A stretch of 64,000 bases of DNA. It comes from Naegleria gruberi. Its lineage: Eukaryota. The position numbers and the translations under genes are program-made. The notes under the pieces were generated by a model. It did not search any database. It worked only from the letters and a program-made list of their open reading frames with translations, and was not told the DNA's origin. Within the stretch, counting starts at the first letter, position 1. Each line of letters opens with the position of its first letter. Below are positions 8,501 through 63,231 of the stretch, in pieces. Where the stretch lies: the NCBI GenBank assembly GCA_000004985.1, contig GG738914.1, one strand, 5' to 3'.

Positions 8501-10062
8501 ATTGTATAAGGAAATTGAAGGAGAAGATATGTCCACTCTGGATCAAGTTTCCAATAAGGTTCAATTGGAGGAATTTTTGAAAAAACTATTCGAAAGTGGA
8601 GGAGTTGTCGATTCGTTGAGCTCTGTTCGATTATCCAACCTTCTGTCACAGAAATTCAATGTAAAACTTGGTGCAGATAAAATCTTACAAGAATGCAAGA
8701 ATAATGAAAATCCAGCACTTGCCATTATGGAAATGATTGAGAAGCTGCTGGAAAATGGACAAGCCCAAGATGAATTATTTAGAAATGATGAAGAGTTGTT
8801 GCGGGAAGTTAAAGATCTCATCAAGGATATTCCAATAGTTGACGAAACTCTTTCGAAAACTATCGAACTGAATAAGAATAGAAATATTTTAATCACTGGA
8901 TCAACTGGATTCATTGGAGTTGGATTGGTATGTGAGCAATTATTCAGCAATCCAGAATCCAATTTGACATGTATTATAAGAGGAAAATCATTGGATAATG
9001 AAAGGGAAAGATTAATCAGTAATGTAATGAATTATTGTTATCATTTTTCACCTGAAGAGAAGAAATCTCTATTGGAAACATTTAATAGTCGAGTTTCAGT
9101 AATTTTAGGAGATATTTCAATGAATAGATTTGGACTAGATCAAGATATTTATAACAAATTAGAAACCGATATTGATACAGTCATTCATTGTGCAGCCAAT
9201 GTCAACTTCATCATGAATTATACTCAACTTGAAGCACGTCAATGTTCAAAGTGTTATTGAATGTTTGAAATTATGTACCTCTCAAAGAATCAAACACTTG
9301 CACTTTGTTTCAACTATTAGTGTCATTCCATATTCAATGATTGATCAATATAAGGAGCTGAACAAGCTTGTCGCACAAGATTTCATTCCTCTTTCTCTTC
9401 AAAATTTCAATGACCTTTCAGATGGTTATCCACAATCCAAATACATTGCAGAGCATGCTCTCCGTTTAGCTATGGAACAATGCAACTTTAGTCAATTGAA
9501 AATTTACAGACCTGGACTCGTAGTTGGACATACCATGAATGGATTCAGCAGTGTGAGGGAATGGATTTGTAGATTGATATGTGGATTTGCTCATTTGGGT
9601 GAAATTCCAATTGAATATTCCAAACATGGCATGCAAGTTATTCCAGTCAATTGCTGCGCCAAAGGAATTATTGACCTCATCAATAATCAATCAAAATCCA
9701 ACACTACAATTCATCATTTAACCAATTGGAACAAACTCTACAGAACCATTGATAACATCCTGCTAGCCATGAAGAATTTAAATCTCACATGGAAATCCAT
9801 CCATTACAAAAATTGGATTGAAAATATTCACACACAAATGAATAATGGAAAAATGGAAAAGTTTCCACAAATGACAAAAGAAAATTCGATATTTGGAATT
9901 GTACACATGTTTCCACTCGAACATGACATGCTTAATATTGATTCGACAATGGAAGAGCAAATTTGCCAACACGATTTGAGTTATCTTTCGGATGAGAAAG
10001 TGGACGATAGAAAGTTAGTGGAAAGGGAAATTGAATTTCTAATTAGAAACAAACAGATCTAA
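5532..10062 (+). CDS. NRPS-like adenylation-carrier-thioester reductase (A-T-R) enzyme, carboxylic-acid-reductase-like; apparent +1 frameshift near 9228-9233
   Basis: ATG at 5532. The AMP-binding core has YTSGSTSTEPKG and acyl-CoA-synthetase-like blocks. A carrier-like GVVDSLSSVRL motif offers a candidate phosphopantetheine Ser. The C-terminal NAD-binding reductase has ILITGSTGFIGVGLV. The reductase alignment runs across two ORFs, 5532..9260 and 9229..10062 (NVNFIMNYTQL|KHVNVQSVIECLKL), which requires a 1-nt shift. Confidence 0.8.
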
Positions 10063-29500: not shown

Positions 29501-31454
29501 GTTTACAGTACTCAAACAGGATCCAAGTAATCCAGATGATGCAAGTGGACAAGTAGCTCTATCTTGTGTCAATATGGAAACTTTACAAAGTTGTGATGGT
29601 TTCGTCCAGAATGGTGCAAATATTGATCAGACCACTTTGTTATTTAACCAAAAGTATGGACCTGGCGTTTATTTGTTTACTGCTGTGTACACCAAGGGTT
29701 CGAGATTCTCCTCTTCCAAAGTTAAAATCACTGTCACAAGTCAATCGAAATCATCCTTCTTGAGAATATACATTAATACTCCTTCCAATATTGATCTGAC
29801 CTCAGTTGACCCATCCACTTATTTAATTCTTCAAGCACAAAGCATCGACTCACTAAGCGTTCAAAGAATCTACTCATGGACAACTGATTTTGATTCCTCC
29901 TCCACCTCCTCATTGGATCTCAACAAGAAATACTTGTCCATTCCAAAGAGTTTACTTGTTCCTGGTGCTTCTTACACAGTTTCTGTTAAGGTTGTGGATG
30001 GAGCAAAGGTAGGTGAGGGAGTTATTTCATTTGTGGTCAATTCGCCTCCAACATTGGGAAGTTTGGAAATTAATCCATCGACAGGTGTTGCCCTCACTGA
30101 TGAATTTAAGGTTTCATGTGGAAATGGGTGGTCGGATGTTCAACTCCCGCTGACCTTCAAGTTTTTGTACAGACTTCAAGGAGATGTGTTCTGGAAAGTA
30201 TTGAAAGAAAGATCTGAAACGAGGTCTTTCAGTACTGTCATGCCAAGTGGACATATAGAAATCAAATCCATTGTCTATGATGCTTTAGGAGCCGCCACAG
30301 AAACAACACAAATCATTCAAGTCACTAATCCAGTTGACATTACATCAGCCGTTCAATCTTTGAATGCTATTAGTACTTCTTCAGTCACTTCCTCTTCGAC
30401 CTCATCTGCATTGAGTGTTATTCAATCATTGAAACCTCAAACTCAAGAAGAAAAGCAAAAATTGAGTGAAACTGGATCAAAGATTGCAATTGCCTATTTT
30501 TCACAGATAGAAAAGGAAGAAACCGTCACTTCCCAAACAGTTTCATCAACAGCCTCTTCAATTTCTGTTATTTCATCCATCAGTACTTGTATTTCAAATC
30601 TGCCTGAAAGCACAGTCAGTTTTATCATTACTAAATTCAAGTCAACTGTCGATGGCGCCAATTCAAAGCTTAATTTACCAGATGAAGATATTGAATCATC
30701 ATTCAACAGTGCCACCACCATTCAATCCTATGTTGTCAAAAATGGAGAAAAGAGGGCAATCTATGTCTTCTCCAAAGTTGATATTACAATGTTAGATCAA
30801 ATTAAGGAAACTCTTGTTAACCTACAAGTGAAGAATTTAGTTGCAGACATGCCTGCTGCTAGAACATTCGGCACAGATTACTATTCATATATGAGATTAA
30901 TGAGCGTTTCGTCTTTGAGTAATTTGAATGATACAATCAGTTCAGAATCTTCATTCTCTCTCAGTCAACCATTCAGCACACTATCACAATTTTCTAATTT
31001 GGATACTGTTAAACTTGTGATGAAAGTCCAACAACAAAACGAAAGTGTTACCAAACTTTTCTCATTCAAGGTAGTTTCTACCAATACTGAAATACCAATC
31101 AGTTCTGATTCAATTGCTGAACTCACCATTGAAAATAATGATGGAGTTGTACAAAATGCTGCCACTTACGAATGCAAGATTTTACAAAATGGACAATTGA
31201 CATCATTGTCCTCATGTGTGATTGTTTCACACTCTGCAACCAGCTTTACAGTTAGGGTTCCTTCAACTGGTTCTTATGCAATTGTGGCCAATGTTAAGAA
31301 AGATGTTATTGTTGACATATTGTCAGAAGATAATTTGAAATATCTTGCTTTCCTATCATTGATTGTTCCAATTGTTGTGTTGATTGTCATTGTTTTCATT
31401 GTTGTGGTTTGTGTTATTAGAAAGAGAAAGAGAGCAAAAGTTCAAGGTGTTTAA
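26516..31454 (+). CDS. large type I membrane protein with ~9 EGF/laminin-EGF-like repeats and long Ser/Thr-rich ectodomain; one intron plus an apparent frameshift
   Basis: Exon 1 (26516..26642) encodes signal peptide MQGRTLLLFTLILLCVLAYCC. A 63-nt GTAAGT..TTTAG intron at 26643..26705 joins it in frame to ORF 26783..27259. The reading frame then continues in ORF 27198..31454 and needs a 1-nt shift. EGF repeats include CECSGLFEGEFCQECKDGF...CDITCSAQTTCSGKGSC. The C-terminal TM helix is IVPIVVLIVIVFIVVVCVI followed by RKRKRAK. Confidence 0.75.
26643..26705 (+). other. spliceosomal intron (63 nt, phase 1)
   Basis: It starts GTAAGT and ends ATTTAG. Splicing joins the signal-peptide exon to the downstream ORF in frame. 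Confidence 0.75.
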
Positions 31455-47544: not shown

Positions 47545-50026
47545 TTAACCAATTGTTTCATTATCAAATAATTTCTCTAATTCCCTTTGAAAATCTTTCA
47601 TTAAAATTGGTTTTTTTAATACCAAGTCGAATCCAGATTCTAGTAATGATTCATCACTCCCAAACATTTGCAGTTACTGCTACAATCTTGCATTTTCTCT
47701 CCTTCTCAATTGACCTAATGAGTTTGCAACATTCCTTTCCACAGATAATTGGCATTAGTAAGTCCAATAAGATTAAATCAAAATTCATTTCCTTTTTGAA
47801 TGTTTCTAAAGCTTCTAATCCATCACATGCTGTTTGAGAATTAAATCCAAGATTGTTTGTCATTTTCTGTAAAACTTTTCTATTGACTTGGTTGTCATCA
47901 ACAACAAGAACCTTTTTGGAATGAAAAATTGAATTAGAATTGGAAGGAGCAATTGATGTGAGTTTGGTTGATGAAATTTTAGAGTGGATTGTGGTAATAA
48001 AGTGTTCAATTCGAGTAGGTAGGTAAATGTCAGATGTTGACAATTGAGAGGAATGCCTGAGACTCGTAGAAATAATTATAGCATTCGTAGTGATTGGACT
48101 AAATGATTCAATAGTAAATATTTTTGAATTAGATGGGTAAAATATCAGAACTTTTGATTGTGGAAGGGTATTTGATTGGAAATATTTTGGAATATTTCCA
48201 ATAACATCATTTAGAGATTTCAAAGTATTAACTTTCATCGAATTTACATTTGGATAGATGGATCTACACAGTTGCTCTAAAGAATAGGATAAATTATCAT
48301 TCTCTTCTAGAATTAAAACTTGTCTGATTGAAAAGTTCTTAATTTCCTCAATTTCCTCAGAAATTCTTGAATCAATTTTCGCAATTTGAGACATGTTACA
48401 TTTCTTTAGAGGAATGTAGATTGTTACTTTGGTTCCAACTCCAATTTCACTCTCAAAATTGATTTTTCCATTCATTAGCTCAATGAATTGATTCGAAAGT
48501 GATAAACCAATTCCATGGCTTTCGTGGAATGAGCCTCTATTTTGATTAATAACAGAATAAGAGTAATACCTTTCAAAATCCATAGATGCACCATCAACAG
48601 TGTGAAATGGTCGGAATAAATTACGAATATCTTTTGTTGGTATTCCAATACCAGTATCCTGACAAGTTACTTTCAAACATATAAATTCCTCCGTATCAAT
48701 AATGCTCCTTCCCTCTAAGAATGGATAATCTTCATCTGTTTTATCACAAACTGTGCAATTCAACATAATACTTCCTTTTTTAGTGTATTTGACAGAATTA
48801 GAAACAAAGTTGAGCAAGATTTGTGACAATCTAACATGATCTCCTATCAAATATAGTGGAACCTTATTTAAATCAAGAACAGATTGCAGCATCAGTCCTT
48901 TTTCTTTGGCTAAATTTGTGAAAACTGACAATATTGAATCAGTCAATTCTAAAATATTAAATGGAAAGTTGTTGAGCTTAATTTTACCAAGTTCTAAGTT
49001 GCTAATCTGAAGATAGTTCGAAAATACATCCATGAAAATCTTGGAATTGCTTTCAATATCATGTAATAATTCTAATTGAGCCTTCAAGTCGTTTTGCAAC
49101 CTAGTGACAAACTTTCCAAAACTCTCTATTTTCAATCCCACCAAATTTTGTAAAGTTTCCGAAATCTTTTTCATATCTAGTTGCATTAATTCAACAGTAA
49201 CCAAAAGTCCATGTAATGGATTTCTCAACTCATGAGACAAATTGGAAATAAATTTCGTCTTGGATTTGTTCATTTCTTTTTGATTGTAAAGAGCAATTCT
49301 GGAATTAATGGTTTCATCGTATTGTTGTTCCACTAAATCTTCATATACAAATCCAATAAATATGGGAGTGCTGAATGCTATGATCGGTTCCAACAGTTTG
49401 ATTATTCTATCTCTGTTCGAATCCCAAATATGTTGAAATACGTAAGGTGTTTGCCTTTCTAGATGCGTTAAGGTAAAGAACTTGCCTCCATTTCCTAAAT
49501 GTTTCGAACTATACTCAAAAGCAAGGTACTGTGCAACAATATTCGAAATGAAAATAACCAGGAAGTTCAATATCAACATTTTCTTTCTAAAATAGGAAGT
49601 ATGAGTCAAGGTCAACAAGGCATACATATTTATCAACCAGATTGGAACTTCCCTTCCCAAATAAACCTGCATGGTCAATCTGACCATCGCATTTGCCACA
49701 GTTTTGGCTAAATACCCAAATTCCAAAGTATTCAAATGATTCAAATCTTTGCTCTTCAACACTGCTCTACCTGCAATTGCATTCACAATCAAATCAATCG
49801 CAACAAGTATCAAGAAATTCACTCTCTCAATAAAATTCTCAATCCAAAATGAACAAATCAGAAGAATCATGACGAAATATCCCAAAAAAACTGGAGCCAT
49901 TCGTTGTTGGACACTATTAATCTTCATTTTGAATTTGATATTGTCCATGCATCTTCCCTGTTGCTCCTGCTTAGCAAAAAGATTCGGAAGAATTTGAGAA
50001 AGCTGTTTGGCGTAGTAATTGACCAT
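47545..50026 (-). CDS. hybrid sensor histidine kinase (TM sensor region, HisKA, HATPase_c, receiver); frameshift near 47654-47672
   Basis: ATG at 50026. Several N-terminal TM helices. H-box is ISNLSHELRNPLHGLL. ATPase G-boxes are QDTGIGIP and GIGLSLSNQFIELMNGKINFESEIGVGTKVTIYIPL. Receiver is KVLVVDDNQVNRKVL...DLILLDLLMP...IVAVTANVW. The receiver C-terminus (SDESLLESGFDLVLKKPILMKDFQRELEKLF) lies in the +1 frame and runs to the stop at about 47545. Confidence 0.85.
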
Positions 50027-51634: not shown

Positions 51635-52495
51635 ATTGGTGTGATGAGTGTGATGTGACAATTCTAAAAATTGAATAAACCAAATTTGTGTGCTATGGTG
51701 TGTTAGCCATTTAGGAATTGAATTTTGGTGGTCTGTTGTTTTTCGGAATGAGGTAGTTGTTTTTCAAAAGTAGCCGCCCTCTATTCTTTTTTCGAAAAAT
51801 CAACTCCCGAATTTAATAAAACTTAATAGTTAAATACAGGGTACAATTTATGAAAAACACCAACCCTGTTGTTTAGCTGTGTGATTCTGATGAAATGTGG
51901 TAGATGATTTGTGTCAAAGTAGGACCTAAATTCATTTTTTTTTTGCTCAGGTTGGTGGTTTTTTGCAGTTCAGGGGTAAATCCCGTCATTAGGGATTTTA
52001 AAAAAAATCTATTAAATAGATTAACAACATATGATATTGGAATTAATTTTCATCCGAACATTCAACAAGAAAGCATAGGTCATGCTAACAACAATATTGC
52101 TGGAAATTTTTGTTAATTATTTTTCATAAATAATAAATCTATTCAATTTTCATCAAACTTACCAATTTCAAATAATCTCATACTGATATTATAATAACAT
52201 TTAATTGGCATGAATCTCAGTAGGCACCATATTTTACCTTGCCTTCCAAAAACAATGTTTACCGCCAAAAAAAATGAATATAATCTACAGCACACGACAA
52301 CACATTACAAGCCTAGGGGCATCTGTTCTGGGCCAATTCAATGATAATCGGTGATGGGTGAATGATTGCAAGCAGGACAATGGAGAGTGACTGAAAAACA
52401 ACCCAAGCATTTACCAAATTAAAAAGAAATTCCAACACAATAAGCCGTACTCCCTCTACGGCTCCTCTCCTTGTTGAAATTCGCATTTGTTTGTC

Positions 52496-54412
52496 ATGAT
52501 GGTGATGTTGATGGATTGGCTGCTAGACTGGTTTCATCAGCAATACATGAATCAATTTAAAGTTCCATCATCTTCCCTCTCGAATATCAATCTTCCCTCT
52601 AATTTTAATAATTACTATGAACTATTTGCTTCATCACAACAACAACAATATAATTCATCGAATAATGATGGTATTCAAGTGAATGGAACAAGATGCCATC
52701 CAATACTATTCAATTCTGGAGGTATTTCTATGGAACCTGAGAATCCAAAGTTCGAATATGGAATTTGTCCTGATACTATTTTCACAGTTATCTTTACAGG
52801 CATTACATTGGCCTTCTCTCTTGGCTTTCTAATATTTGGATTGATTGGAATTATTAAAAAACGAAAGAGTGGACACATCAAGGCAAGAAATCCAATTCTA
52901 ATGGTTTCAACCTTGGTGGCAAGCTTTTCGTTTGTTCTCATTTCGACGTTGAGGTACTTAGTTGGGAGAAAGATATTCCCGTGTGCATTGTTTGCATTGA
53001 CTTTCTTCATTATTGTTCCACTTATTATTATTCCAACTCTATTGAGATCTGTTAGATTGTATTGCATGTTTAAATTGAACATGATAAAGGTTGGAAATAA
53101 GAGAATGTCAACTAGTAGTGTTCCAACAAACTTGGCAATGAATACTTCACAAGTATCAGCAACAGCTTTAAGACTAGATCTCAACAAAGTGGAACCTGTA
53201 ACAACAACAACAGACCAACAAACAGCACAAATGCAACAATCAGATTTTGCATCACCTGCAGATTCTTCAACAACAACAGATCAGACAACACAACTGCAAC
53301 AATCAGAAACACCGACAAGTGGAAATGATTCACCTCAACCTGCTCAACAACAAACTTCCACTACACCACGTTCAGTCAAATTTCAGGAAGCAAAATCATC
53401 CAACATTGATACAGTGGAACCTTATGATTCTTGGAATGAAGTTTCGGATATTGATATTTTATCTGACATTGCTTCAGATTATGCCCCTCATATGATGGAA
53501 GAGGCAGATTTGAAGAAAATCAGAATATTGACCTTTCTTACTAGTAACAAATTTATTGTAATCACTTATGCTGTTCTCATTCCTATTCATCTTGCCTTTT
53601 GGCTTGTATTAGGAGGTATTGAGGAAGGAATATTTGAAAGAGATCCCACTCAGAAGAGAGTCTTTTTAGAAGATGGAGGATTACTCATGTTCTCACACGG
53701 TTGCATTACAAATTACAAAACTGTAATCATTATTGTTGTACAGGCTGTTCTCTACATACTGGCTGAGATTATTTTACTGATTTTTTGCGTATTTGCAGAT
53801 AGAGATACATGGAAAATCAAAATAGAAACATTCGTGGTAGTGATATTCCAATTTACCTTTACAGTTTTGTTTGGTTGTGAACAAATTAGTGTTATTTATA
53901 CTCTCATTGAATTCATCTTCCCCTCAGGAAACGTTATGGCGACTGCCACTGTAATTGAAGTATTTATTAGTGTAATTTTACCACTCATCTATTCCATCAT
54001 TAGAGATGAGCGAGCAAAGAAGTATAGTGGTGAATCTGATTTAGAAAAGGTTTTGAAAAACAAGCGAATGTTCGCCAAATTATTGGAATTTTCAAGAAAA
54101 TCATACTGTCCAGAGAATATTCTCTGCTTTAAAGATATTCAAATTTACAAACGATTGAAACAACCTGGAAAGAAAAAGATGGCAGACTATATCTGCCAAA
54201 CTTATTTGCGTCAATTTGCTCCTCTAGAATTGAACATGCCTCACTCTGAAACAAGATATGATGATATTATGGGAAAGTTGGAAAGAAAGGAAACTTTGGA
54301 AAAGAACTTATTTGATTATTTGAGTGTAACATGTCTCAACAATATGCAAGATGTATTTGAGAGATTGAAAGAAACCGATTCATCAGTTAAAGATTTTATC
54401 AATACAAAGTAA
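52496..54412 (+). CDS. 7-transmembrane receptor-like protein with C-terminal RGS domain (7TM-RGS), paralog A
   Basis: First ATG at 52496. Seven predicted TM helices, with a long Thr/Gln-rich loop between TM3 and TM4. The C-terminal RGS box is KLLEFSRKSYCPENILCFKDIQIYKRL...YLRQFAPLELNMPHSETRYDDI. Confidence 0.8.
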   Translation: MMVMLMDWLLDWFHQQYMNQFKVPSSSLSNINLPSNFNNYYELFASSQQQQYNSSNNDGIQVNGTRCHPILFNSGGISMEPENPKFEYGICPDTIFTVIFTGITLAFSLGFLIFGLIGIIKKRKSGHIKARNPILMVSTLVASFSFVLISTLRYLVGRKIFPCALFALTFFIIVPLIIIPTLLRSVRLYCMFKLNMIKVGNKRMSTSSVPTNLAMNTSQVSATALRLDLNKVEPVTTTTDQQTAQMQQSDFASPADSSTTTDQTTQLQQSETPTSGNDSPQPAQQQTSTTPRSVKFQEAKSSNIDTVEPYDSWNEVSDIDILSDIASDYAPHMMEEADLKKIRILTFLTSNKFIVITYAVLIPIHLAFWLVLGGIEEGIFERDPTQKRVFLEDGGLLMFSHGCITNYKTVIIIVVQAVLYILAEIILLIFCVFADRDTWKIKIETFVVVIFQFTFTVLFGCEQISVIYTLIEFIFPSGNVMATATVIEVFISVILPLIYSIIRDERAKKYSGESDLEKVLKNKRMFAKLLEFSRKSYCPENILCFKDIQIYKRLKQPGKKKMADYICQTYLRQFAPLELNMPHSETRYDDIMGKLERKETLEKNLFDYLSVTCLNNMQDVFERLKETDSSVKDFINTK

Positions 54413-54425
54413 GACGAAACACAGT

Positions 54426-54848
54426 TTACTTTTTGAGAATATGATCTTGCATTGCAGAGGCAATTCTTCTAGCCTTACTCAATGCAATGAATCCATGACT
54501 AATTTCAATAGAGGATGAATTATTCATTATCAAACTAATGATACCACCATTCTCACCATTAACTGTAGAAGAAGTGTCAACTGCAACTGTTACATCTTTA
54601 ATGTCAGCCAAATTATATTCCTCAGTAGATTCTCCACAACTTCCAAAAATACTTCCATAATTATGAACAACCAATAATTGTTGTTCCTCATCAATGGAAT
54701 AGTCGGTTGATGTTTGTTTGAGAGCAATGCAAAGGAATGGACATCCAATGCATGGACAAATAAAACAACAGACACATCCAACCATTCCAAAAATATTGGC
54801 CATAGTGTTTGGCTCGGCTTTGATGAAGAAGTTATTGTTGTTTGACAT
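54426..54848 (-). CDS. small Cys-cluster membrane protein (140 aa), hypothetical
   Basis: ORF with ATG at 54848 (MSNNNNFFIKAEP). Contains a hydrophobic Cys cluster GMVGCVCCFICPCIGCPFLCIAL. Confidence 0.4.
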   Translation of the reverse strand: MSNNNNFFIKAEPNTMANIFGMVGCVCCFICPCIGCPFLCIALKQTSTDYSIDEEQQLLVVHNYGSIFGSCGESTEEYNLADIKDVTVAVDTSSTVNGENGGIISLIMNNSSSIEISHGFIALSKARRIASAMQDHILKK

Positions 54849-55109
54849 TTTTTTTGATTTTTGGTTGTTGATGAACTTTTGTGGCTATTTCAATCATTGC
54901 GCATGGAACTTTATTCGAAAGGGCACTTTGCTGACAAAACGTGTTCTTCACATATTGTTCAAGTCTTCTTTGAAAATATCCAAACAATCCTATTTTTTGA
55001 TCAATTTTTGTAAACATTTGAAAAACATCACAATTTATCTAATTTCCATAATTGACAAATTTCCAAATCCAAAAGGCATTAGCAAATTGAAAAATTCCAT
55101 CTTTAAAAA

Positions 55110-55685
55110 ATGTACACTCCTTCCATCACTGAAACCATCGAAAATCCACCACCAACATCAAAACCAATTAGTGGTGGAAGCAATGCAACCTTCGAACCAT
55201 CATCTTCAACACCCTTCTCACCAACTGAACATGCAGTACAATTACAATATCCTCCACCAGAATCAAAATCAAATCCTAGTGATACTTATATAAGTGAACA
55301 GGTTCCTGTTTCGAAACCTGTTACTGCACTCATTGAGCCACCAGAATTAAAACCAGCAGTGGCTGCATCTGGTCAACCATCAAGTAATTCACCTCCCAAG
55401 ACAGATATCAAAGATCCAAAAAGTTTACATCTTCCACATCTTCATGTACCTTCAATGTTTCATGATAAATCTGATCCTATTCATAAGGTTAATGAATATG
55501 ATGTTGATGGAATAAGGCAGAGAAGGCTTATTTATGGAGCTGTATTGGATCGCTTTGTTTATGTCTGTTTGGATGTTGGTGCATTCCTTGGATACCTTTC
55601 GTATTTGTCCATACGAAATATTCCAGAGCAACAAGTGCTAGAGCTAGAAGATATTCTCAGTTGGCTAAAATTACTTGGATTGTAA
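55110..55685 (+). CDS. Pro/Ser-rich protein with C-terminal TM segment, hypothetical
   Basis: ATG at 55110. The N-terminus is Pro/Ser-rich and low complexity. The C-terminus has a hydrophobic segment VYVCLDVGAFLGYLSYLSI. Confidence 0.4.
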   Translation: MYTPSITETIENPPPTSKPISGGSNATFEPSSSTPFSPTEHAVQLQYPPPESKSNPSDTYISEQVPVSKPVTALIEPPELKPAVAASGQPSSNSPPKTDIKDPKSLHLPHLHVPSMFHDKSDPIHKVNEYDVDGIRQRRLIYGAVLDRFVYVCLDVGAFLGYLSYLSIRNIPEQQVLELEDILSWLKLLGL

Positions 55686-55811
55686 TTTTGATATCCTTGT
55701 TGAGTGTTTTATTGTTGGGTATTCTAGTTGCAATTGTTGTGCCTTCAGTTTATTCTGTTCGTCATCAAAAAATTTAACATTTGATTCGAATAAAAATTTT
55801 ATTGTAAAGTG

Positions 55812-56384
55812 TTATCTGTTAAAAATTCCAATTGAAAATAGAACAATTAACACAATCATTACAGCAACCAAGAACATGAATACATTCGAAAATAATACCC
55901 CAATTGCAATCCATCGACATCTCTCCGAAAATGCATAAACACGTGGACTTTCGGTTGGATTCGATCTAAATCTAAAATAAACTACACTAAATGGAATAAA
56001 AGCCAATGGAACCATGCAAAACATTGCCAAAATTATGGAAATCAAAATTGCTAAATGATAACTCGATCTTGCATTGTTTCCTTCCACATCAATCACTTGT
56101 CCTTTTCCTGTTGGTTTTTGAATGACTGGTGGTGGTTGTGTTATTTGGGATTTGGAAGGAATTTGTAATTCTGCATCTGCTGGTTTTATTTCTTCTTTGG
56201 TTGTGGGGGTTGAGATTTCTTTGGCATTAAGAGATTCTTCACTTTTATTCGAAAGATTTTCTGCTGGCAAACTTCCATTCGAAGCTTTGGCTGGAGTTTC
56301 CTTTATGGCAGTTTCTGCAATTACTTTAATTTGCAGAGGTGAAAGTTGAGCGAATTGTTCAGGATTCAAAACTACGGTCGTCAT
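55812..56384 (-). CDS. CD225/dispanin-like two-TM protein with Pro-rich N-terminus (tentative)
   Basis: ATG at 56384. The C-terminus SYHLAILISIILAMFCMVPLAFIPFSVVYFRFRS...RWIAIGVLFSNVFMFLVAVMIVLIV resembles the CD225/IFITM two-helix pattern. Confidence 0.4.
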   Translation of the reverse strand: MTTVVLNPEQFAQLSPLQIKVIAETAIKETPAKASNGSLPAENLSNKSEESLNAKEISTPTTKEEIKPADAELQIPSKSQITQPPPVIQKPTGKGQVIDVEGNNARSSYHLAILISIILAMFCMVPLAFIPFSVVYFRFRSNPTESPRVYAFSERCRWIAIGVLFSNVFMFLVAVMIVLIVLFSIGIFNR

Positions 56385-56801
56385 GAGTTTCGAATAGTTT
56401 CAATTTTTTTTATTGTTGATTTCGTCGGTATGCAAATCTGGTGTGAAGGTAAAAGGAAATGTTCTTTTTGTAAATTTTCTTACAATGGAAATCGATCATG
56501 AGTGCAGGAGGATTCTGTCGCTGATGCTAAACTTTCAATTTGTGTAGAAACTCCTTTCGAATTGTTATCCTAAACTTTTTGTATCGAGCATGATCTTTCT
56601 TGAACCTTAATCTCAATCATTCAACATCTTTGTTAACGGTTTCAATAGTTTCCTTATTAATCTTTCAATATATTTGAAGTTTCCAATAACAAACAATGTT
56701 TACAATATCTAATTAGAAACCTAAGGAGTCAATTTTTTTAATGTGCTTCCACTCCTAGCAGAACTTTCAGAATCTCCGGTAAATTATGTAATCAGAACAT
56801 C

Positions 56802-56851
56802 NNNNNNNNNNNNNNNNNNNNNNNNNNNNNNNNNNNNNNNNNNNNNNNNNN
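56802..56851. other. assembly gap (50 N)
   Basis: Run of N. It truncates the 5' part of the downstream lipase gene. Confidence 1.
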
Positions 56852-57275
56852 CGGTTTATTAGACAAGTTGACTTTTGACAGAGTCATTTTCACAGGACAT
56901 TCTCAAGGAGGTGCCGTCGCCATGCTATCCATCTATGATTTCCTCTTACACTATCCTAAATACTCCTCCAAAATTGAGTTAATCACTTTTGGTCAACCAA
57001 GAGTAGGTCAATCAAACTTTATCGAAAAATTCAAACAAATTCTTTCCCCGCCAAAATATACTCGTCTCGTTACAATTTTTGTAAATAAAGACGCAAAAGG
57101 AAATGGAAAAAGCGTTGGTGAAGATTTGGTCTCTCAAGTTCCGCCGCCATTTCTTGGATTTAAACACGCGGGAAGTAAGGTAAATGTTGTGTGCACTGCG
57201 TTGAGTATTACAAAGTGTCATGATATGAATACTTATTTGGATGGTGTTAAGGCTGGAAAATATGTTGAGAATTGA
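56852..57275 (+). CDS. class-3 (fungal-type) lipase, C-terminal fragment (5' end lost in gap)
   Basis: DRVIFTGHSQGGAVAMLS is a GHSxGG nucleophile elbow of Lipase_3. ITFGQPRVGQSNF matches the conserved GxPRVGN block. Confidence 0.7.
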
Positions 57276-57346
57276 GTTGTTTGAATTAATTTTTGAAAAT
57301 ATACGAAAGGTCTGTAATAAAAATTAATTTAAATTTTTCAAAAAAA

Positions 57347-59128
57347 ATGGAGGTCGAATCTGAAGAATTATTCGAATCATTTTTTTATTATTCAAAATCG
57401 GAGAAAATTCAACAAGTAATTTTACACGAAAATCAATTATCACCACTCGGATCAGATGTTATGCAATTAATTCTTTCCTTTCTGCAACCGATTCCTTTCT
57501 TATTTCAACTAAAACGAGTTTCGTCTAATTGGAATAAGTTATGCGAAAGTTGCATGAAAGAAAGTTGTACAGAATTATATTGGGATGAAAAAACAGCAAG
57601 TTCTCTACTTGGAAATCTAAAGAAACATGCAAAAAAGTTGTGGCAATTTCCAGAATTTTATGAAGATGAAAATTTATTAACAAATTCAAAATCTGAATCA
57701 GAAAGTACTTTTGAATTTGTAAAGAATTCAATAATGCTGCCATTTAAAAGTGGAAATTCAATTGAATACATGATGTTTGGATTGTTTAGGAGTGTATTAT
57801 TCAAATTTGGCAAGTTGAGCTCACTAATTTTACATAATGTTAAGGTGAATGCTGGATTGCTTTATTTATTATTTGTGGAATGGGGAAAGGAGTTGGAACG
57901 AATCAAATTCATTAATTGTATTGTTGATTTTGGTTTGCCGAAACAAATTACTTGTCAAGATGATGTCAATTCCCATAATAGTTATTGGCTTGTTTCAGAT
58001 TTGAATCAAATACAGAGCTTGAAATTTGAGATTCCAAGTCAATTACCTGATCTTACAATTCAAAAAAGTCTTTTAATTGAAAATTTGAAGAAAGCCAAGA
58101 TGAAAGATATCTCATTTAGCAATTGTTCAATTGATAGATCACTTGTTTTGAATCATACGCATGCTTCTCACTTTTCTCTGGAATTAATGTGCTTTTTTTC
58201 ATCAATTGGAAGTTTGGAAACTGCTTATTATGATTGTTTTGAATTTAATGAAACTTTTGATCAAGACAGGACCTTCTTTAAAAAGCTTGTGCCAAATGTC
58301 AAGTTTAATATTCCATTCTTCCTTGCAGTTAAGCAACTGTTGGACATTTTACCATTTGAAAAAGTTGTAGAATATTTCAAATTTGACATGGAACGTAATT
58401 ATTCGTTAGTGAAGAATAGAATGAATGCTTATCAAAAGAGAAAAATACGAAATAAGGAAGAATTAATCAATTTTTACTATGAAGTTTTTCCCTCATTTGC
58501 ATCATTCCATGTTAGGTGCTCTCCTTTTATATTTGATTTATATTACAAAGATTATAGAGGATTCAACATGCTTCAATCGATATTGTCTTCTATTTATTTT
58601 AGTAGAAAACATCAAACTCATCTGCTTGATTTCATTTTTGATTATTTTTCTTTTTACAATGAAGATACAAACTCTGTAAAAGAAAGTACTGAGATTTTAA
58701 ATGAATTATTTGCATCAAATAATCGAGTGGACGGGAGAAATTCGACCTTTATTGTAATTTCATATGAACTGACATTCATGTTTGAAAAGATGGTTAAACA
58801 TAAAGTTCATTTCAATGCCAAAGATAGAGAAGGATCAACCATAGCTCATTATCTAGCTCAGGTAGGAAATGGTTCAACATTACAAAAATTAATTGAGATA
58901 TTGGACAAACTACCAACTGTGGAAGAGAGGAAATACTTTTTAGATTTAAACATTCCCAATAATCAAGGACAAACTGCAGCTATGATTTGTTACAATGAGA
59001 AGAAATTTGAATTATTGGAATATTTGATGCAAATTGCTCCAAGATATGGAATTCTTGCTGCAAATGGCATGCCATTACAAAAAGATAATGTTTCAGTACT
59101 GGAACAACAGTCTTGCTCTTTAATGTAA
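57347..59128 (+). CDS. F-box-like / ankyrin-repeat protein, hypothetical
   Basis: First ATG at 57347 (MEVESEELF). F-box-like LGSDVMQLILSFLQPIPFLFQLKRVSSNWNKLC. The C-terminus has ankyrin-like repeats (GSTIAHYLAQVGNGSTLQKLIE; NNQGQTAAMICYNEKKFELLEYLM). Confidence 0.6.
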   Translation: MEVESEELFESFFYYSKSEKIQQVILHENQLSPLGSDVMQLILSFLQPIPFLFQLKRVSSNWNKLCESCMKESCTELYWDEKTASSLLGNLKKHAKKLWQFPEFYEDENLLTNSKSESESTFEFVKNSIMLPFKSGNSIEYMMFGLFRSVLFKFGKLSSLILHNVKVNAGLLYLLFVEWGKELERIKFINCIVDFGLPKQITCQDDVNSHNSYWLVSDLNQIQSLKFEIPSQLPDLTIQKSLLIENLKKAKMKDISFSNCSIDRSLVLNHTHASHFSLELMCFFSSIGSLETAYYDCFEFNETFDQDRTFFKKLVPNVKFNIPFFLAVKQLLDILPFEKVVEYFKFDMERNYSLVKNRMNAYQKRKIRNKEELINFYYEVFPSFASFHVRCSPFIFDLYYKDYRGFNMLQSILSSIYFSRKHQTHLLDFIFDYFSFYNEDTNSVKESTEILNELFASNNRVDGRNSTFIVISYELTFMFEKMVKHKVHFNAKDREGSTIAHYLAQVGNGSTLQKLIEILDKLPTVEERKYFLDLNIPNNQGQTAAMICYNEKKFELLEYLMQIAPRYGILAANGMPLQKDNVSVLEQQSCSLM

Positions 59129-59155
59129 TTAATGAAGAGCAATTTTTTGATCTAT

Positions 59156-60231
59156 TTAAAAGAGGCCACCAAAAACAGGGCCTTCTTCCTCTTCATCTAC
59201 TGCTATGGCAACGAAACTAGGGTGTTCTTGGTCCTCTTCATCGACTACTACTCCTTCATTTGGAGATTTGAAAATATTGTTAGCATTATCAGTTGGGGAA
59301 AGCTTGTTTACAATATTCTTCATTCCAAATTTGTTACAAGCACACAAGAGTGCTTGTTTGGTATCTTCATCCAATTTACTTCCAATAATTCCATAATTTA
59401 ATCAAGTATATGTGAAAAAATTAATGGATTACAATCAATGAAATAAATTGGATCATCAAACTGTTTTGAAGCTGGTGTTTGATAACATGGATATTCACCA
59501 TTGAACATTTTCTTAAACAAGTTATCAGGTTCTTGTTGATTGGAGGTGAAATCTCCCAACGAAACTGTCATTATAGTTCCTCTCACATTCAAGTGAATTG
59601 GTTTGTTGCTATTTTCGAGCTTTTCTCTTGCCAATACTTGATTTTCAAATTCGTTCATTCTAGTTTCCAATAATTCTTCTTTCTTTCTAAATTGGTCTAT
59701 TAATTGTTGTTCAAGGGATGCCAATCTATCTTTTGAAACAGTCAATAATTGTTCATTTTCAGTTTGTAATGCTGCCATCCGTTCCAGGTGTTCTCTTTCC
59801 AATTTACTCTTGAATTCTTCGACTTGTTGATATGCTTCATGGAGTGGACAGTACTTTTCTTGATGGTCTTTCAACTCACCTCTCAATACAATATTCTTAC
59901 ACATGCCACACTTGACTTTCAATTTATCCAACATGTTTCGAATAGTTTTGGCACTTGCTGCACAATTCTTCTTGAATCCACCTTCGTTACACAATGGACA
60001 AACCGTTACATTCTCAATACATTTGGCACAGAAAGTATTTCCGCATGAATTATGGGAAATTGGATCCACGAAAGGATGTAAACAAATAGAACAAATTAAA
60101 TCTTCATCAATTTCCTTCTCTACATAATCGAATAGCACTTCTTCTTTCTCCTCCTTGATCAATGGTGTGTTGGAGGAAGTTATTGACGAGTTGGCTATTA
60201 GCTTGCGTTGTTTGAGTTTTTTTAACCCCAT
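59156..60231 (-). CDS. RING finger / TRAF-type zinc finger / coiled-coil / BTB (KCTD T1) protein; frameshift near 59375-59400
   Basis: ATG at 60231. C3HC4 RING CSICLHPFVDPISHNSCGNTFCAKCIENVTVCPLC. TRAF-like Cys/His cluster and coiled coil. T1/BTB region IHLNVRGTIMTVSLGDF...IYFIDCNPLIFSHILD continues in another frame as NYGIIGSKLDEDTKQALLCACNKFGMKNIVNKL (ORF 59156..59374). Confidence 0.75.
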
Positions 60232-61308
60232 AGTGTCTATTTTTTTGTGATTGTAATTCTAATTTTTGATTTGTGACACGAACACTTGTCATTGGGATTT
60301 ACGGAATCAGATTGTGATCAACAGTTGGTAAACCAAGGACAATAATGATACATTCTTTTACAACGAAATTAAATCGCCAAATCAACCAAGAAAATTATTA
60401 GGTAGAGTGGATAGTCAAACATGCTTCTTGTTTCCGAGTGTAAGAAAATCTACATCAACCTGAAATATTTACAAGTTATCGTGTACATCCAATCATAGCT
60501 TGACCAAAATTGATCAAATAAAGTGCTACTGTTGACCATTCCGAACAATCATCAATATGTTTTCCCATCAATTTTATAATAGTATTTGTAAATTCAATTT
60601 TAGTGATTTTTGGTGAACTCATAATCAATGCTGAATCTACAACTGACAAGTTGAGAAGGAACGTAGTATCGACGATATTCCAAGTTGTAACTTTCCATCT
60701 TCAAAAATAATTTCCAATTTCATGATAATAATCCAACAATAAAAATTTCTATTATTACTACTATTTAAATAATGTTGAGATGATGATGTGAAAGTTTGGT
60801 GCTTTCATCATGATGTAAAACCACTCCGAAAATCATCATGTCCTCCTTGCCACATTTCCTTTAATATTTTTTGATAATTTTTTTTATTATTAAAAAATAT
60901 CAAACTCTAACTTGGAAGCAACAACAGCTGCAATGGTCATCACGAAATAATAATTTCCAGATATTTGCTCCTTTCATCATCATTGCTTCAAATAATATAT
61001 CCAATATTGATGGAAATATTACAGTTAAAAAACCATCATGATGAATTTCTTTTAGGGTTCCTCTCGCACTCCAATGCGAGTTCCGATACAAAATTATCTT
61101 TGGAAGGTTCACAATAGTGTTTGATGGATGAACTGAAGAATTCACATAGTAATAGAAGACTTTTTTGACATTGTTGATGCTTATACCCTACTGTAATTGA
61201 AGCCTAAAAAATCACATTTCCAAAGTAAGGTAGGAGTCAAACGTGGATGGATATCTCAATTGTCCATTTTTCAAAAGTCCTTTTAACCAACAGAAAAACA
61301 TCAAAAAA

Positions 61309-63231
61309 ATGTCAATGAAAGAATATATAGAGCTCATCTTTTTATCTTCGTATCAGAATCCTTCACTAATAGTCAATGGTCATGCTTCATCAACAGCGCC
61401 ATTTTCGTCATCTTTACATAACGTTTTATTGGAAAGTTTGAATAGCTCAACAACAATAACCAACACAACAAACAATGGTACATCAAACTTTTGTGATCCG
61501 TCACTGTTTAATACACCTTGGAGTAGAGAAGTGAATGGAAGTGTCATTTACGGGCTTTGTCCAGATACTTATTTCTCAATGGCTTTTTGTTTGGCATTTG
61601 TTGTACTTTATCTGTTAGTTGTCATTTTGAGTGGTGTTGGAGTTTATTGGAAGAGGAAGAGTGGTCATATTGTGGCTAGGAATCCAATCTACCTCTACTT
61701 TACATTAGGAGCTGCACTATTCTTTGTGATATCTCTTACTATGAGAGTGATTGTGGGCAGGAAAATATATCCGTGTGGATTGTTGACTGCTTCCTTTTTT
61801 ACATTCCCTCCTGCAATTTGTTTACCTACCATCTTTAGAATGATGAGAACATTCTTCATGTATAAGATTAATTTACAAAAGGCCAAATTATTCGATTCCT
61901 CTACTGGCACCAATAAGCCGGAGGGGAAAGATTTTGAATTATTTAAAGGAGCAGTAGAACCTGAAATCAAACATGAAACGCCAACACCAGGAATTGATTT
62001 TTCACAAATATTTCATGCTGAGACTTCTCCTTCTGTTCACCAAAATAATCCATTCGTAGGAAGTCCTAGTTCAACAGTTGACTCACTCAGTAGTACCACA
62101 GATGATGTGGATGACGTTTCGAATTCCAATACTGGAATTGATTCAGAATCTATTGCTGATGTTTCAACATGGAATTTTACAGAACTCAAAGAAATTCAAT
62201 CACTCAGATCTGAAATTAGAAAGTTGAAGATTTACAATTTTGTGACCAGTTTGAAATTTATTACCATTTTTTACATTCTGGGTTTTATATTTGGACTTGT
62301 AGTATGGCTGATTATTGGAGGTATAGAAGAAGCTTTATATTCATTCAATACTAGTCCAGATAAGAAACGTATCTTCCTCTATGATGGTGGATTGTTTGTT
62401 TTTGATCATGGTTGTGGAATGACATCAAACTCTATCATTATCGTTGGTATTGAAGCAATTTTATACATTATTCTAGAGTTTATCTGTTTCATAATGTGTG
62501 TCAGAGCTGATAAAGATACTTGGGGTATCAAGTTAGAATCTCTCACATTGATTGTAATTCAGATTCTTAGTGCAATAATTTTCCTAGTGGCAGGAAATAT
62601 AGAATTCATTTTCAACTTTACAGAATATTATTTCCCATATGGATTTGTATTGTGGGGTTACATGCTGATTGAAATTATTGTTTGTGTGACACTTCCAGTT
62701 CTCTATGCCATTGTAAGAGATAATAAGGACAAGGTTCAACAAGCAGCTCAATTGAGTACTTTGGAAAAGATTTTGAAAAATAAGAAAACCTTCCAAGTTA
62801 TGCTTGATTTTGCAAGAAGAAGTTATTGTACTGAAAGTATATTGTGTTGGAGGGATATTCAGAGATATAGATTGGCAAGAAAGAAAAGTCATAGAAAAAA
62901 GGCAATCATTCACATACTTGGAGTTTATTTGACATTTGGAGCTCCCTTGGAATTAAACATGCCAAATGTAGAGAAACTGAAACAGGAAATTCTAGCTCAA
63001 ATTACTGGAGGAAAATTTATAGTAACAGAAGGATTGATTGTTGATGCCAATGAAATTTCCAAAATTATGAATGGTAATGCACTTGTACAACTTCACACAA
63101 ACTTGTTCCAAGCTGTACAGGAGCATTGTTTGAATGATATGAGTGATTTATTTGAAAGATTGAAGAATTCTAATAAGGAGATTGCAGAGATTGTCAAGTC
63201 ACATAAGGAACTTTCACAAACCGTGAACTAA
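61309..63231 (+). CDS. 7TM-RGS protein, paralog B
   Basis: First in-frame ATG at 61309 (MSMKEY). Same architecture as 52496..54412: GLCPDTYF...KRKSGHIVARNPI, seven TM helices, a long hydrophilic TM3-TM4 loop, and RGS box VMLDFARRSYCTESILCWRDIQRYRLA. Confidence 0.8.
   Translation: MSMKEYIELIFLSSYQNPSLIVNGHASSTAPFSSSLHNVLLESLNSSTTITNTTNNGTSNFCDPSLFNTPWSREVNGSVIYGLCPDTYFSMAFCLAFVVLYLLVVILSGVGVYWKRKSGHIVARNPIYLYFTLGAALFFVISLTMRVIVGRKIYPCGLLTASFFTFPPAICLPTIFRMMRTFFMYKINLQKAKLFDSSTGTNKPEGKDFELFKGAVEPEIKHETPTPGIDFSQIFHAETSPSVHQNNPFVGSPSSTVDSLSSTTDDVDDVSNSNTGIDSESIADVSTWNFTELKEIQSLRSEIRKLKIYNFVTSLKFITIFYILGFIFGLVVWLIIGGIEEALYSFNTSPDKKRIFLYDGGLFVFDHGCGMTSNSIIIVGIEAILYIILEFICFIMCVRADKDTWGIKLESLTLIVIQILSAIIFLVAGNIEFIFNFTEYYFPYGFVLWGYMLIEIIVCVTLPVLYAIVRDNKDKVQQAAQLSTLEKILKNKKTFQVMLDFARRSYCTESILCWRDIQRYRLARKKSHRKKAIIHILGVYLTFGAPLELNMPNVEKLKQEILAQITGGKFIVTEGLIVDANEISKIMNGNALVQLHTNLFQAVQEHCLNDMSDLFERLKNSNKEIAEIVKSHKELSQTVN

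What the first reader, a model, noticed from the sequence alone, without database searches (positions are those of the whole stretch)
52496..63231. Two paralogous 7TM receptor-RGS fusion genes about 9 kb apart on the same strand
Both proteins have a conserved N-terminal Cys (G[IL]CPDT), seven hydrophobic helices, a long low-complexity TM3-TM4 loop and a C-terminal RGS box. This is the receptor-GAP fusion architecture known from plant AtRGS1-type proteins. A local duplicated pair suggests a lineage-expanded self-regulating G-protein signalling module.
Basis: partly seen in the sequence, partly recalled or inferred. Interest (0 to 1): 0.6.

Follow-up and report, generated by a model that had tools for sequence, protein, structure and literature searches.

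The report
Two Naegleria 7TM-RGS receptor-GAP genes

Summary
Observation confirmed. Gene A (52496/52499-54412, +) and gene B (61309-63231, +) are uninterrupted ORFs, 100% identical to two annotated Naegleria gruberi "predicted proteins". They are paralogues (34% identity, E 1e-104). Both pass Pfam's RGS threshold, A only just.

7TM-RGS proteins are already published for this genus: 28 in N. fowleri, with GAP activity shown for three RGS domains on G-alpha subunits, two of which are self-activating (Bosch et al. 2022).

Two corrections:
- A and B are not sister duplicates. They fall in different clades of a subfamily with at least 10 members in N. gruberi, and unrelated genes lie between them.
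- Sequence homology of the 7TM part to AtRGS1 could not be shown (hhalign no better than reversed controls). Both groups give sub-threshold hits to the class C family 7tm_3.

Low novelty; interest about 0.25.

The parts
52496..54412 (+). Gene A: intact single-exon CDS for a 7TM-RGS protein. The first ATG is at 52496; the NCBI model P0011 (637 aa) starts at 52499; the stop is TAA at 54410-54412.
   Evidence: ORF list. 100% identical to an N. gruberi predicted protein on a 233,110-bp scaffold. Coordinates checked.
52499..52771 (+). A: predicted extracellular N-terminus (aa 1-91). It has NxS/T sequons at N52 and N62, two Cys (C66, C90), and the GICPDT motif abutting TM1.
   Evidence: AF2 pLDDT is 75-91 for aa 61-90.
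52772..53044 (+). A: TM1-TM3, including the K/R-rich first cytoplasmic loop (KKRKSGH) and the conserved FPC Cys at the top of TM3.
   Evidence: Hydropathy, AF2 helices H94-120, H125-155 and H162-205, loop composition.
53045..53548 (+). A: long disordered cytoplasmic TM3-TM4 loop (168 aa, 26% Ser+Thr). It ends in an acidic/Ser motif and a juxtamembrane helix.
   Evidence: pLDDT is below 50 for aa 211-329, and helix H335-348 follows. The motif is aligned.
53549..53995 (+). A: TM4-TM7. The second extracellular loop is 28 aa and carries the HGC Cys, the only invariant residue of the family. A conserved ADRDTW lies after TM5.
54038..54406 (+). A: cytoplasmic RGS domain (aa 514-636). PENI corresponds to RGS4 E87-N88, and ELNM contains the N128 equivalent.
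61309..63231 (+). Gene B: intact single-exon CDS for a paralogous 7TM-RGS protein (640 aa from the annotated ATG). The ORF extends upstream to a GTG at 61243.
   Evidence: ORF list. 100% identical to N. gruberi predicted protein P0001 on the same 233,110-bp scaffold.
61309..61569 (+). B: predicted extracellular N-terminus (aa 1-87). It has four NxS/T sequons (N45, N52, N56, N76), two Cys (C62, C84), and GLCPDT abutting TM1.
61570..61842 (+). B: TM1-TM3. TM3 is weaker by hydropathy but helical in the model.
   Evidence: AF2 helices H88-114, H119-149 and H156-196.
61843..62259 (+). B: long disordered TM3-TM4 loop (139 aa, 23% Ser+Thr). It ends in DSESIADVSTWN and a juxtamembrane helix.
   Evidence: pLDDT is below 50 for aa 197-296.
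62260..62712 (+). B: TM4-TM7, with a 30-aa second extracellular loop carrying the invariant Cys (C369).
62758..63225 (+). B: cytoplasmic RGS domain (aa 484-639). TESI corresponds to RGS4 E87 followed by Ser, and ELNM contains the N128 equivalent.
   Evidence: Pfam RGS 32.6 bits, E 1e-7. Profile alignments.
63007..63090 (+). B only: 28-aa insertion inside the RGS box (GGKFIVTEGLIVDANEISKIMNGNALVQ). It is absent from the other aligned homologues.
   Evidence: Alignment columns 880-905. Low pLDDT for aa 568-592. Coordinates.

Best explanation
Both genes encode plasma-membrane receptor-GAPs of the Naegleria 7TM-RGS class.

Anatomy, shown here:
- A short glycosylatable, Cys-containing N-terminus faces outward.
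- Seven helices form a GPCR fold closest to class C receptors.
- A long disordered Ser/Thr- and acid-rich loop between TM3 and TM4 faces the cytoplasm.
- A canonical RGS domain follows TM7 in the cytoplasm.

Mechanism, inferred from the family:
- The tethered RGS domain binds the transition state of GTP-bound G-alpha subunits at the membrane and accelerates GTP hydrolysis. This keeps fast-exchanging ("self-activating") G-alpha proteins switched off.
- An extracellular or membrane cue sensed by the 7TM part changes the access, location or abundance of the GAP. One possible route is phosphorylation of the long loop followed by endocytosis, as with the AtRGS1 C-tail. This would release G-alpha signalling.

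A and B are old, diverged members of a heterolobosean subfamily. They probably differ in cue and/or G-alpha specificity.
For: - Identity and integrity: both ORFs are uninterrupted and identical to annotated N. gruberi proteins.
- Topology: sequons and Cys lie in the N-terminus, loop 1 is K/R-rich, and paired Cys sit at the top of TM3 and in ECL2.
- Fusion conserved: 74 of 87 long family members carry RGS.
- Published biochemistry in the sister species: RGS domains of three N. fowleri 7TM-RGS proteins are GAPs for Nf G-alpha2, 3, 5 and 7. They bind only the GDP-AlF4 form and are blocked by the switch-1 G-to-S mutation. G-alpha5 and G-alpha7 are self-activating (PMC9283941).
- N. gruberi has more than 30 G-alpha genes and 229 RGS genes (PMC5784254).
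Against: - No GAP assay, ligand, localisation or expression data exist for A or B.
- A's Pfam score is only 0.2 bits above the threshold.
- Most family members, including B, have Ser where RGS4 has N88. A keeps Asn.
- B carries a 28-aa insertion inside the RGS box, with unknown effect.
- The N. fowleri proteins that were assayed have EGF, lectin or GPS ectodomains. A and B lack these, so the assayed proteins may belong to another subfamily.
- Regulation through the loop is pure inference.
- The short TM2-TM3 loop is also basic, which is not ideal for the positive-inside rule.
Confidence: 0.8

Rival explanations
1. The 7TM part is a conventional GPCR with exchange-factor activity, and the fused RGS acts as a built-in terminator. 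The receptor would both activate and rapidly deactivate its G protein, sharpening or spatially confining the signal, rather than acting as a pure receptor-GAP.
For: - The TM domain has a bona fide GPCR fold closest to class C receptors that couple to G proteins.
- de Mendoza et al. note that 7TM-RGS proteins and canonical GPCRs coexist in several lineages, which blurs the GAP/GEF distinction.
Against: - No GEF activity has been shown for any 7TM-RGS protein.
- The long insertion sits in intracellular loop 2. The third intracellular loop is only about 9 residues, and TM7 runs almost straight into the RGS domain. Nothing here tests coupling.
Confidence: 0.12
2. The RGS domains are non-catalytic. 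They would serve as G-alpha-binding (effector or anchor) modules, like the RH domains of GRK2 or RGS-RhoGEFs, so that the proteins act as G-alpha-regulated receptors or scaffolds rather than GAPs.
For: - The RGS boxes are divergent: Pfam scores are 24-33 bits, and 15 of 87 relatives also touch the RGS-like family PF09128.
- The N88 equivalent is Ser in B.
- B has an insertion in the box.
Against: - The E87 and N128 equivalents are invariant or nearly so across the family.
- The model of A superposes on RGS4 at 1.9 A.
- N. fowleri 7TM-RGS RGS domains are true GAPs.
Confidence: 0.06
3. One or both genes are decaying or unexpressed duplicates, or are mis-joined gene models with no present function.
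For: - The family is very large, and A scores only marginally in Pfam.
- Several database relatives are truncated models: P0007, P0008 and P0019 lack parts.
Against: - Both ORFs run for about 1.9 kb without a stop.
- All family-invariant residues are retained.
- A has conserved full-length relatives at 41-44% identity in environmental assemblies.
- The 7TM-RGS junction lies inside a single ORF, so no gene-model join is involved.
Confidence: 0.02

Closest known systems
Naegleria fowleri 7TM RGS proteins (28 genes; Nf 7TM RGS1-4 studied; Bosch, Jeck & Siderovski, J Biol Chem 2022, PMC9283941)
   Same: Same genus, and the same N-terminal 7TM plus C-terminal RGS architecture in a large expanded family. 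The isolated RGS domains are canonical GAPs for Naegleria G-alpha subunits, including self-activating ones. An N. fowleri protein (FDP41_001330) is a direct hit of the A/B 7TM profile.
   Different: The four proteins studied have large ectodomains with EGF-like repeats, lectin domains and GPS motifs. A and B have only about 90 extracellular residues and no detectable ectodomain family, and they carry a long TM3-TM4 loop. Orthology to any of the 28 was not established. A and B themselves are uncharacterised.
Arabidopsis AtRGS1 and plant RGS1 proteins
   Same: - Same 7TM + RGS order and orientation.
- The plant RGS1 profile recognises the family's RGS box (E 1e-6 to 1e-10 in a 159-sequence set).
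- Both have a Cys-Pro motif abutting TM1: plants GGCPSDY, Naegleria YG[LI]CPDT.
- Both give sub-threshold hits to Pfam 7tm_3. Plant P0178 scores 27.6 bits over the whole TM domain, and 8 of 87 family members score, with a best E of 1e-6.
   Different: - Profile-profile comparison of the TM domains is no better than reversed controls, so 7TM homology is unproven.
- Plant proteins are about 460 aa, have no long TM3-TM4 loop, and carry their regulatory phospho-sites in a C-terminal tail (my own knowledge).
- Plants usually have one gene; N. gruberi has at least 10 of this subfamily.
Class C GPCR transmembrane domains (GPR158, GPR156, GABA-B, mGlu, TAS1R, GPRC5D; Pfam 7tm_3)
   Different: - Neither A nor B has a Pfam 7tm_3 hit, and the family profile has no sequence hit to any solved GPCR.
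- There is no Venus-flytrap or Cys-rich ectodomain.
- The RGS is covalently fused rather than recruited.
- Sequence identity in the superpositions is only 7-14%.
Fungal class VI GPCRs with a C-terminal RGS domain (e.g. Aspergillus GprK; PMC10794492) and Trichomonas 7TM-RGS proteins
   Same: The same fused receptor-RGS idea in other eukaryotic lineages.
   Different: None appeared among the named hits of the 7TM profile search, so the TM parts are not detectably the same family. They were not compared directly.

Membership tests
RGS domain (Pfam PF00615) | Profile match at or above the Pfam gathering score | tested here: met
   A scores 24.1 bits and B 32.6 bits against a cut-off of 23.9. A is marginal. 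74 of 87 relatives match, with a best E of 8e-23.
RGS domain (Pfam PF00615) | All-helical RGS fold | tested here: met
RGS domain (Pfam PF00615) | G-alpha switch-contact residues (RGS4 E87, N88, N128; D163/R167) | tested here: met
   The E87 and N128 equivalents are invariant in the family RGS alignment and are aligned by HMMER and hhalign. N88 is Asn in A and Ser in B. The D163/R167 equivalents (D..ER in DLFERL / DVFERL) rest on my manual alignment only. RGS4 numbering is from memory.
RGS domain (Pfam PF00615) | GTPase-accelerating activity on a G-alpha subunit | not testable with these tools
   Shown only for three N. fowleri 7TM-RGS RGS domains in the literature.
7TM-RGS receptor-GAPs (AtRGS1 type) | Seven TM helices N-terminal to a cytoplasmic RGS domain, in one polypeptide | tested here: met
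   Single ORFs. Seven TM helices followed by an RGS bundle in both AF2 models. Hydropathy. N-terminal sequons are consistent with an N-out, C-in orientation.
7TM-RGS receptor-GAPs (AtRGS1 type) | 7TM domain homologous to that of plant RGS1 | tested here: inconclusive
   hhalign scores are 24 (E 0.024, 22 columns around CPxD and TM1) and 18, against reversed controls of 14-18. The plant TM HMM gives only 6-9-bit hits, some of them collinear. Both groups have sub-threshold 7tm_3 hits.
7TM-RGS receptor-GAPs (AtRGS1 type) | Partner G-alpha that exchanges nucleotide faster than it hydrolyses GTP | not tested
   Reported for N. fowleri G-alpha5 and G-alpha7. No G-alpha gene is among the window ORFs of 200 aa or more.
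Class C GPCR (Pfam 7tm_3, PF00003) | Profile match at or above the gathering score (33.5 bits) | tested here: not met
   A and B have no hit at E <= 1. 8 of 87 relatives hit below the threshold (best E 1.2e-6, for example P0142 at 26 bits).
Class C GPCR (Pfam 7tm_3, PF00003) | TM-domain fold closest to class C receptors | tested here: met
Class C GPCR (Pfam 7tm_3, PF00003) | Large ligand-binding ectodomain (Venus flytrap, with or without a Cys-rich domain) | tested here: not met
   Only 87-91 residues precede TM1, and no Pfam family is found there. Some class C orphans (GPR156, GPRC5) also lack this ectodomain.
Heterolobosean short-ectodomain 7TM-RGS subfamily (defined here by the TM profile A2) | Full-length match to the TM profile, conserved Cys pair (top of TM3 and ECL2), and ADRDTW after TM5 | tested here: met
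   A scores E 6e-172 and B E 5e-190 (by construction, since both are in the profile). There are 190 clusters at E <= 1e-3. Named clusters come from N. gruberi, N. lovaniensis, N. fowleri, Willaertia, Pharyngomonas and one Clastostelium transcriptome. The ECL2 Cys is invariant.

The most novel reading that the evidence does not exclude
The 7TM part of this heterolobosean subfamily and that of plant RGS1 may both descend from one class C-type (GABA-B/GPR158-like) receptor already fused to an RGS domain. A class C receptor-GAP would then date back to the common ancestor of Discoba and Archaeplastida, close to the last eukaryotic common ancestor. The long Ser/Thr-acidic TM3-TM4 loop would be the heterolobosean counterpart of the AtRGS1 phospho-regulated tail. 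The evidence does not exclude this. The class C-like fold, the sub-threshold 7tm_3 hits on both sides, and the collinear CPxD / C-H-x-G / RDxW motifs all fit it. Direct profile-profile comparison, however, is not significant.
Probability: 0.25. Interest if true: 0.5.

Novelty: new member of a known kind. Interest (0 to 1): 0.25.

Why it matters
The finding matters little as a discovery. The architecture is textbook for plants, it is published for Naegleria, and both proteins are already in public databases.

Its modest value is descriptive:
- It defines a short-ectodomain subfamily that is, among its named members, almost confined to Heterolobosea. This subfamily has a class C-like TM fold and an unusually long cytoplasmic TM3-TM4 loop.
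- It shows that members tend to lie in local pairs.
- It gives a concrete pair of diverged paralogues in the non-pathogenic model N. gruberi for testing how a receptor-GAP senses its cue. That question is still open even for AtRGS1, and it bears on drug-target ideas for N. fowleri.

Tried and rejected
1. Foldseek against afdb50, which would have allowed a direct structural comparison with the AtRGS1 model: the library was unavailable.
2. Foldseek of the B model against the PDB: nothing significant, best E 0.43, although only GPCRs and RGS domains were listed.
3. TM-only profile against PDB sequences: a single spurious hit to a cbb3 oxidase at E 0.4, so no solved GPCR is detectable by sequence.
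4. hhalign of the heterolobosean TM profile (8 and 86 sequences) against a 16-sequence plant RGS1 TM profile: scores of 18-24 against 14-18 for reversed controls. Rejected as evidence of homology.
5. Plant TM HMM against all family members: only 6-9-bit hits.
6. Genomic context of N. gruberi paralogues P0004 and P0008: not on record in the contig index.
7. Bradford et al. 2013 (Sci Signal), the survey I recall as listing 7TM-RGS in N. gruberi: not held by DOI or PMC id, so that point rests on memory and on citations.
8. First tree attempt timed out. It was redone as NJ with 100 bootstraps. Deep nodes are weakly supported, and only the statement that A and B fall in different clades is used.
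9. Whether the REJ/EGF protein at 27198-31454 is another adhesion-type 7TM-RGS: it has a single C-terminal TM helix and no RGS. Rejected.
10. The idea of a G-alpha gene next to the receptors: none found among ORFs of 200 aa or more. Short or multi-exon genes were not excluded.

Full report
**What is there**

The window has about 33% G+C. It is nuclear DNA of the amoeboflagellate Naegleria gruberi. The two ORFs in the finding translate to proteins 100% identical to NCBI/UniRef "predicted protein [Naegleria gruberi]" entries that lie on the same 233,110-bp scaffold (P0001 for gene B; P0011 for gene A).

Gene A is the ORF 52487..54412. Gene B is the ORF 61243..63231, with the annotated ATG at 61309. 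Both are on the + strand and neither is interrupted. Their starts are 8.8 kb apart, and 6.9 kb separates A's stop from B's start.

**Check of the observation**

- Paralogy. A and B align over about 610 residues at 34% identity, E 1e-104. tblastn finds no third copy in the window. At the DNA level only one 104-bp stretch at 69% identity remains.
- RGS box. Both proteins match Pfam RGS (PF00615) above the gathering score of 23.9 bits. B scores 32.6 bits. A scores 24.1 bits, which is marginal. The marginal score is backed by three other results:
  - A profile of the family's RGS region hits RGS22, RGS3, RGS10, RGS16, RGS5, RGS2, RGS18 and RGS4 among solved structures (E 1e-7 to 1e-2).
  - hhalign to RGS4 gives E 2e-4.
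- Seven helices. Hydropathy gives seven segments in A, and six strong segments plus a weaker TM3 in B. The AlphaFold models show seven long TM helices in both. The model of B, built from 13 sequences, has pLDDT 60.8. The model of A, built from 63 sequences, has pLDDT 78.9 and pTM 0.67, with the TM and RGS blocks above 90.
- Motif and loop. G[IL]CPDT abuts TM1 in both proteins. The TM3-TM4 loop is 168 aa in A and 139 aa in B, contains 23-26% Ser+Thr, and is disordered in both models.

**Anatomy and topology**

- The N-terminal 87-91 residues carry clustered NxS/T sequons and two conserved Cys.
- The first loop (KRKSGH) is basic.
- A Cys at the top of TM3 (F/YPC) and a Cys in the 28-30-residue TM4-TM5 loop (HGC) are conserved. 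The second is the only invariant residue across 63-87 homologues. They sit where GPCRs have their canonical TM3-ECL2 disulfide.
- A conserved ADRDTW follows TM5.
- TM7 runs almost directly into the RGS bundle.

These features fit an N-out, C-in topology with the long loop and the RGS domain in the cytoplasm. The loop ends in a conserved acidic/Ser motif (DSESxADVSTWN in the B clade, DIDILSDIASDY in A), followed by a juxtamembrane helix.

In the RGS box, the residues aligned with RGS4 E87 and N128 are invariant in the family (RGS4 numbering from memory). N88 is Asn in A and Ser in B and most relatives. B alone has a 28-residue insertion in the box.

**What kind of 7TM domain**

At the sequence level the TM part is an orphan. 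A and B hit no Pfam 7TM family, and the family profile hits no solved GPCR.

Consistent with this, 8 of 87 family members give sub-threshold hits to Pfam 7tm_3 (best E 1.2e-6). One example is the Clastostelium relative at 26 bits against a cut-off of 33.5.

**Family and distribution**

A TM-only profile was searched against 1.84 billion representative proteins. It found 190 clusters at E <= 1e-3, and 79 at E <= 1e-30. Every named cluster I looked up comes from Heterolobosea: N. gruberi, N. lovaniensis, N. fowleri, Willaertia magna and Pharyngomonas kirbyi. The one exception is a transcriptome of the amoebozoan Clastostelium. The remaining clusters are unnamed environmental assemblies.

At least ten N. 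gruberi proteins carry this TM domain. 74 of 87 long members have a detectable RGS domain.

**Relationship of A and B**

In a neighbour-joining tree with 100 bootstraps, A groups at 100% with two environmental sequences. B falls, with moderate support (54% bootstrap), among N. gruberi paralogues from other scaffolds and the N. lovaniensis genes C9374_011232 and 011233. A and B are therefore not sister duplicates, and the split between them predates much of the family's radiation.

Their proximity is still unlikely to be chance. About ten genes in a roughly 41-Mb genome gives about a 0.4% chance of a second copy within 9 kb (genome size from my own knowledge). Other members also lie in local pairs. 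The two N. lovaniensis genes are directly adjacent, and N. gruberi D2W2I5 and D2W2I8 share one 175-kb scaffold. The most economical reading is an ancient tandem duplication, later separated by insertion or rearrangement.

The interval between A and B now holds unrelated genes:
- a class 3 lipase fragment (56868-57275);
- an F-box/ankyrin protein (57293-59128);
- a RING-finger protein (59398-60231, minus strand);
- three ORFs without a Pfam family.

No G-alpha gene was found among the ORFs of 200 aa or more in the window.

**Comparison with what is known**

The 7TM-RGS architecture is well known. AtRGS1 is the prototype. Surveys report the architecture in many non-metazoan eukaryotes (de Mendoza et al. 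2014, PMC3971589, citing Bradford et al. 2013).

For this very genus, Bosch, Jeck and Siderovski (2022, PMC9283941) describe 28 7TM-RGS proteins in N. fowleri. They show that the RGS domains of three of them accelerate GTP hydrolysis on Nf G-alpha2, 3, 5 and 7. These domains bind only the transition-state form and are blocked by the switch-1 G-to-S mutation. G-alpha5 and G-alpha7 are self-activating. N. gruberi is reported to have 229 RGS genes and more than 30 G-alpha genes.

The proteins studied there have EGF, lectin or GPS ectodomains. A and B lack these, so they represent a short-ectodomain subfamily. I could not find that subfamily described individually.

**The AtRGS1 link**

I fetched real plant RGS1 sequences by querying with a recalled AtRGS1 sequence. 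The best hit is 93% identical and named "regulator of G-protein signaling 1". An A. thaliana fragment is 100% identical to the query.

- The plant profile recognises the family's RGS box.
- The TM domains do not align significantly. hhalign scores are 24 (22 columns around the Cys-Pro motif and TM1) and 18, against 14-18 for reversed controls.
- There are collinear resemblances. Plants have GGCPSDY where Naegleria has YG[LI]CPDT before TM1. A Cys-His motif lies before TM5 and RDxW after it.
- A plant RGS1 (P0178) gives a sub-threshold 7tm_3 hit across its whole TM domain (27.6 bits).

A common class C-like origin is therefore plausible but unproven. I file A and B under the architecture, not under a demonstrated AtRGS1 7TM homology.

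**Mechanism**

Shown here: two intact genes, a GPCR-fold 7TM domain, a canonical RGS fold with conserved G-alpha-contact residues, and a cytoplasmic placement consistent with the topology markers.

Inferred from the N. fowleri and plant literature: the tethered RGS acts as a membrane GAP that holds fast-exchanging G-alpha subunits in the GDP state, and a cue acting on the 7TM part relieves this.

Speculative: the Ser/Thr-acidic TM3-TM4 loop is the regulatory (phosphorylation or endocytosis) element.

The rivals are a GEF receptor with a built-in terminator, a non-catalytic G-alpha-binding RGS, and decaying duplicates. All are less likely, for the reasons given under each.

**Verdict**

The finding is nonetheless an ordinary pair of already annotated members of a published, greatly expanded Naegleria protein class.

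The only mildly new points are:
- the class C-like fold of this subfamily's TM domain;
- its near-restriction to Heterolobosea among named members;
- the long second intracellular loop;
- the fact that the two neighbours are old, non-sister paralogues.

Interest 0.25; novelty: new member of a known kind, bordering on already known.

Noticed in passing
window 63007-63090 (gene B aa 567-594): B has a 28-residue insertion (GGKFIVTEGLIVDANEISKIMNGNALVQ) inside its RGS box. None of the 12 other aligned homologues has it, and its pLDDT is low. The effect on G-alpha binding is unknown.
   Followed up: partly
window 47654-50026 (-): A hybrid histidine kinase (HisKA + HATPase_c + response-regulator receiver) lies about 2.5 kb upstream of gene A. 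It is another signalling gene, with no evident link to the RGS genes.
   Followed up: no
window 27198-31454 (+): This 1418-aa ORF has EGF repeats, a REJ domain (polycystin-1/sperm-receptor type) and a single C-terminal TM helix. I checked whether it might be an adhesion-type 7TM-RGS. It is not.
   Followed up: yes
window 3187-4116 / 4226-5452 and 5532-9260 / 9229-10062 (+): An ABC1 atypical kinase domain is split over two ORFs. An AMP-binding + NAD_binding_4 (carboxylate-reductase-like) protein is split over two overlapping ORFs. Introns are the likely cause; in the second case a frameshift is also possible.
   Followed up: no
L001 10001-12391 and 12518-14855 (N. lovaniensis PYSW02000004.1): Two family members (C9374_011232 and 011233) are directly adjacent tandem genes, 126 bp apart. 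N. gruberi D2W2I5 and D2W2I8 also share one 175-kb scaffold. Local pairing seems to recur in this family.
   Followed up: partly
plant RGS1 proteins P0178 etc. (fetched): Several plant RGS1 proteins carry a weak, sub-threshold Pfam 7tm_3 (class C GPCR) hit spanning their whole 7TM domain (27.6 bits against a cut-off of 33.5 for P0178). This is the same weak signal seen in the heterolobosean family.
   Followed up: partly
window 54426-54848 (-), 55110-55685 (+), 55812-56384 (-): Three ORFs of 140-191 aa lie between genes A and B and have no Pfam family. Two of them contain Cys-rich or hydrophobic stretches, judged by eye from the translations. It is not known whether they are real genes.
   Followed up: no
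P0142 (Clastostelium recurvatum transcriptome, EukProt): This is the only named non-heterolobosean hit of the 7TM profile (E 3e-9). It is a 470-aa 7TM-RGS with a strong RGS domain (8e-23) and a 26-bit 7tm_3 hit. It could be a true amoebozoan relative or contamination of the transcriptome.
   Followed up: no
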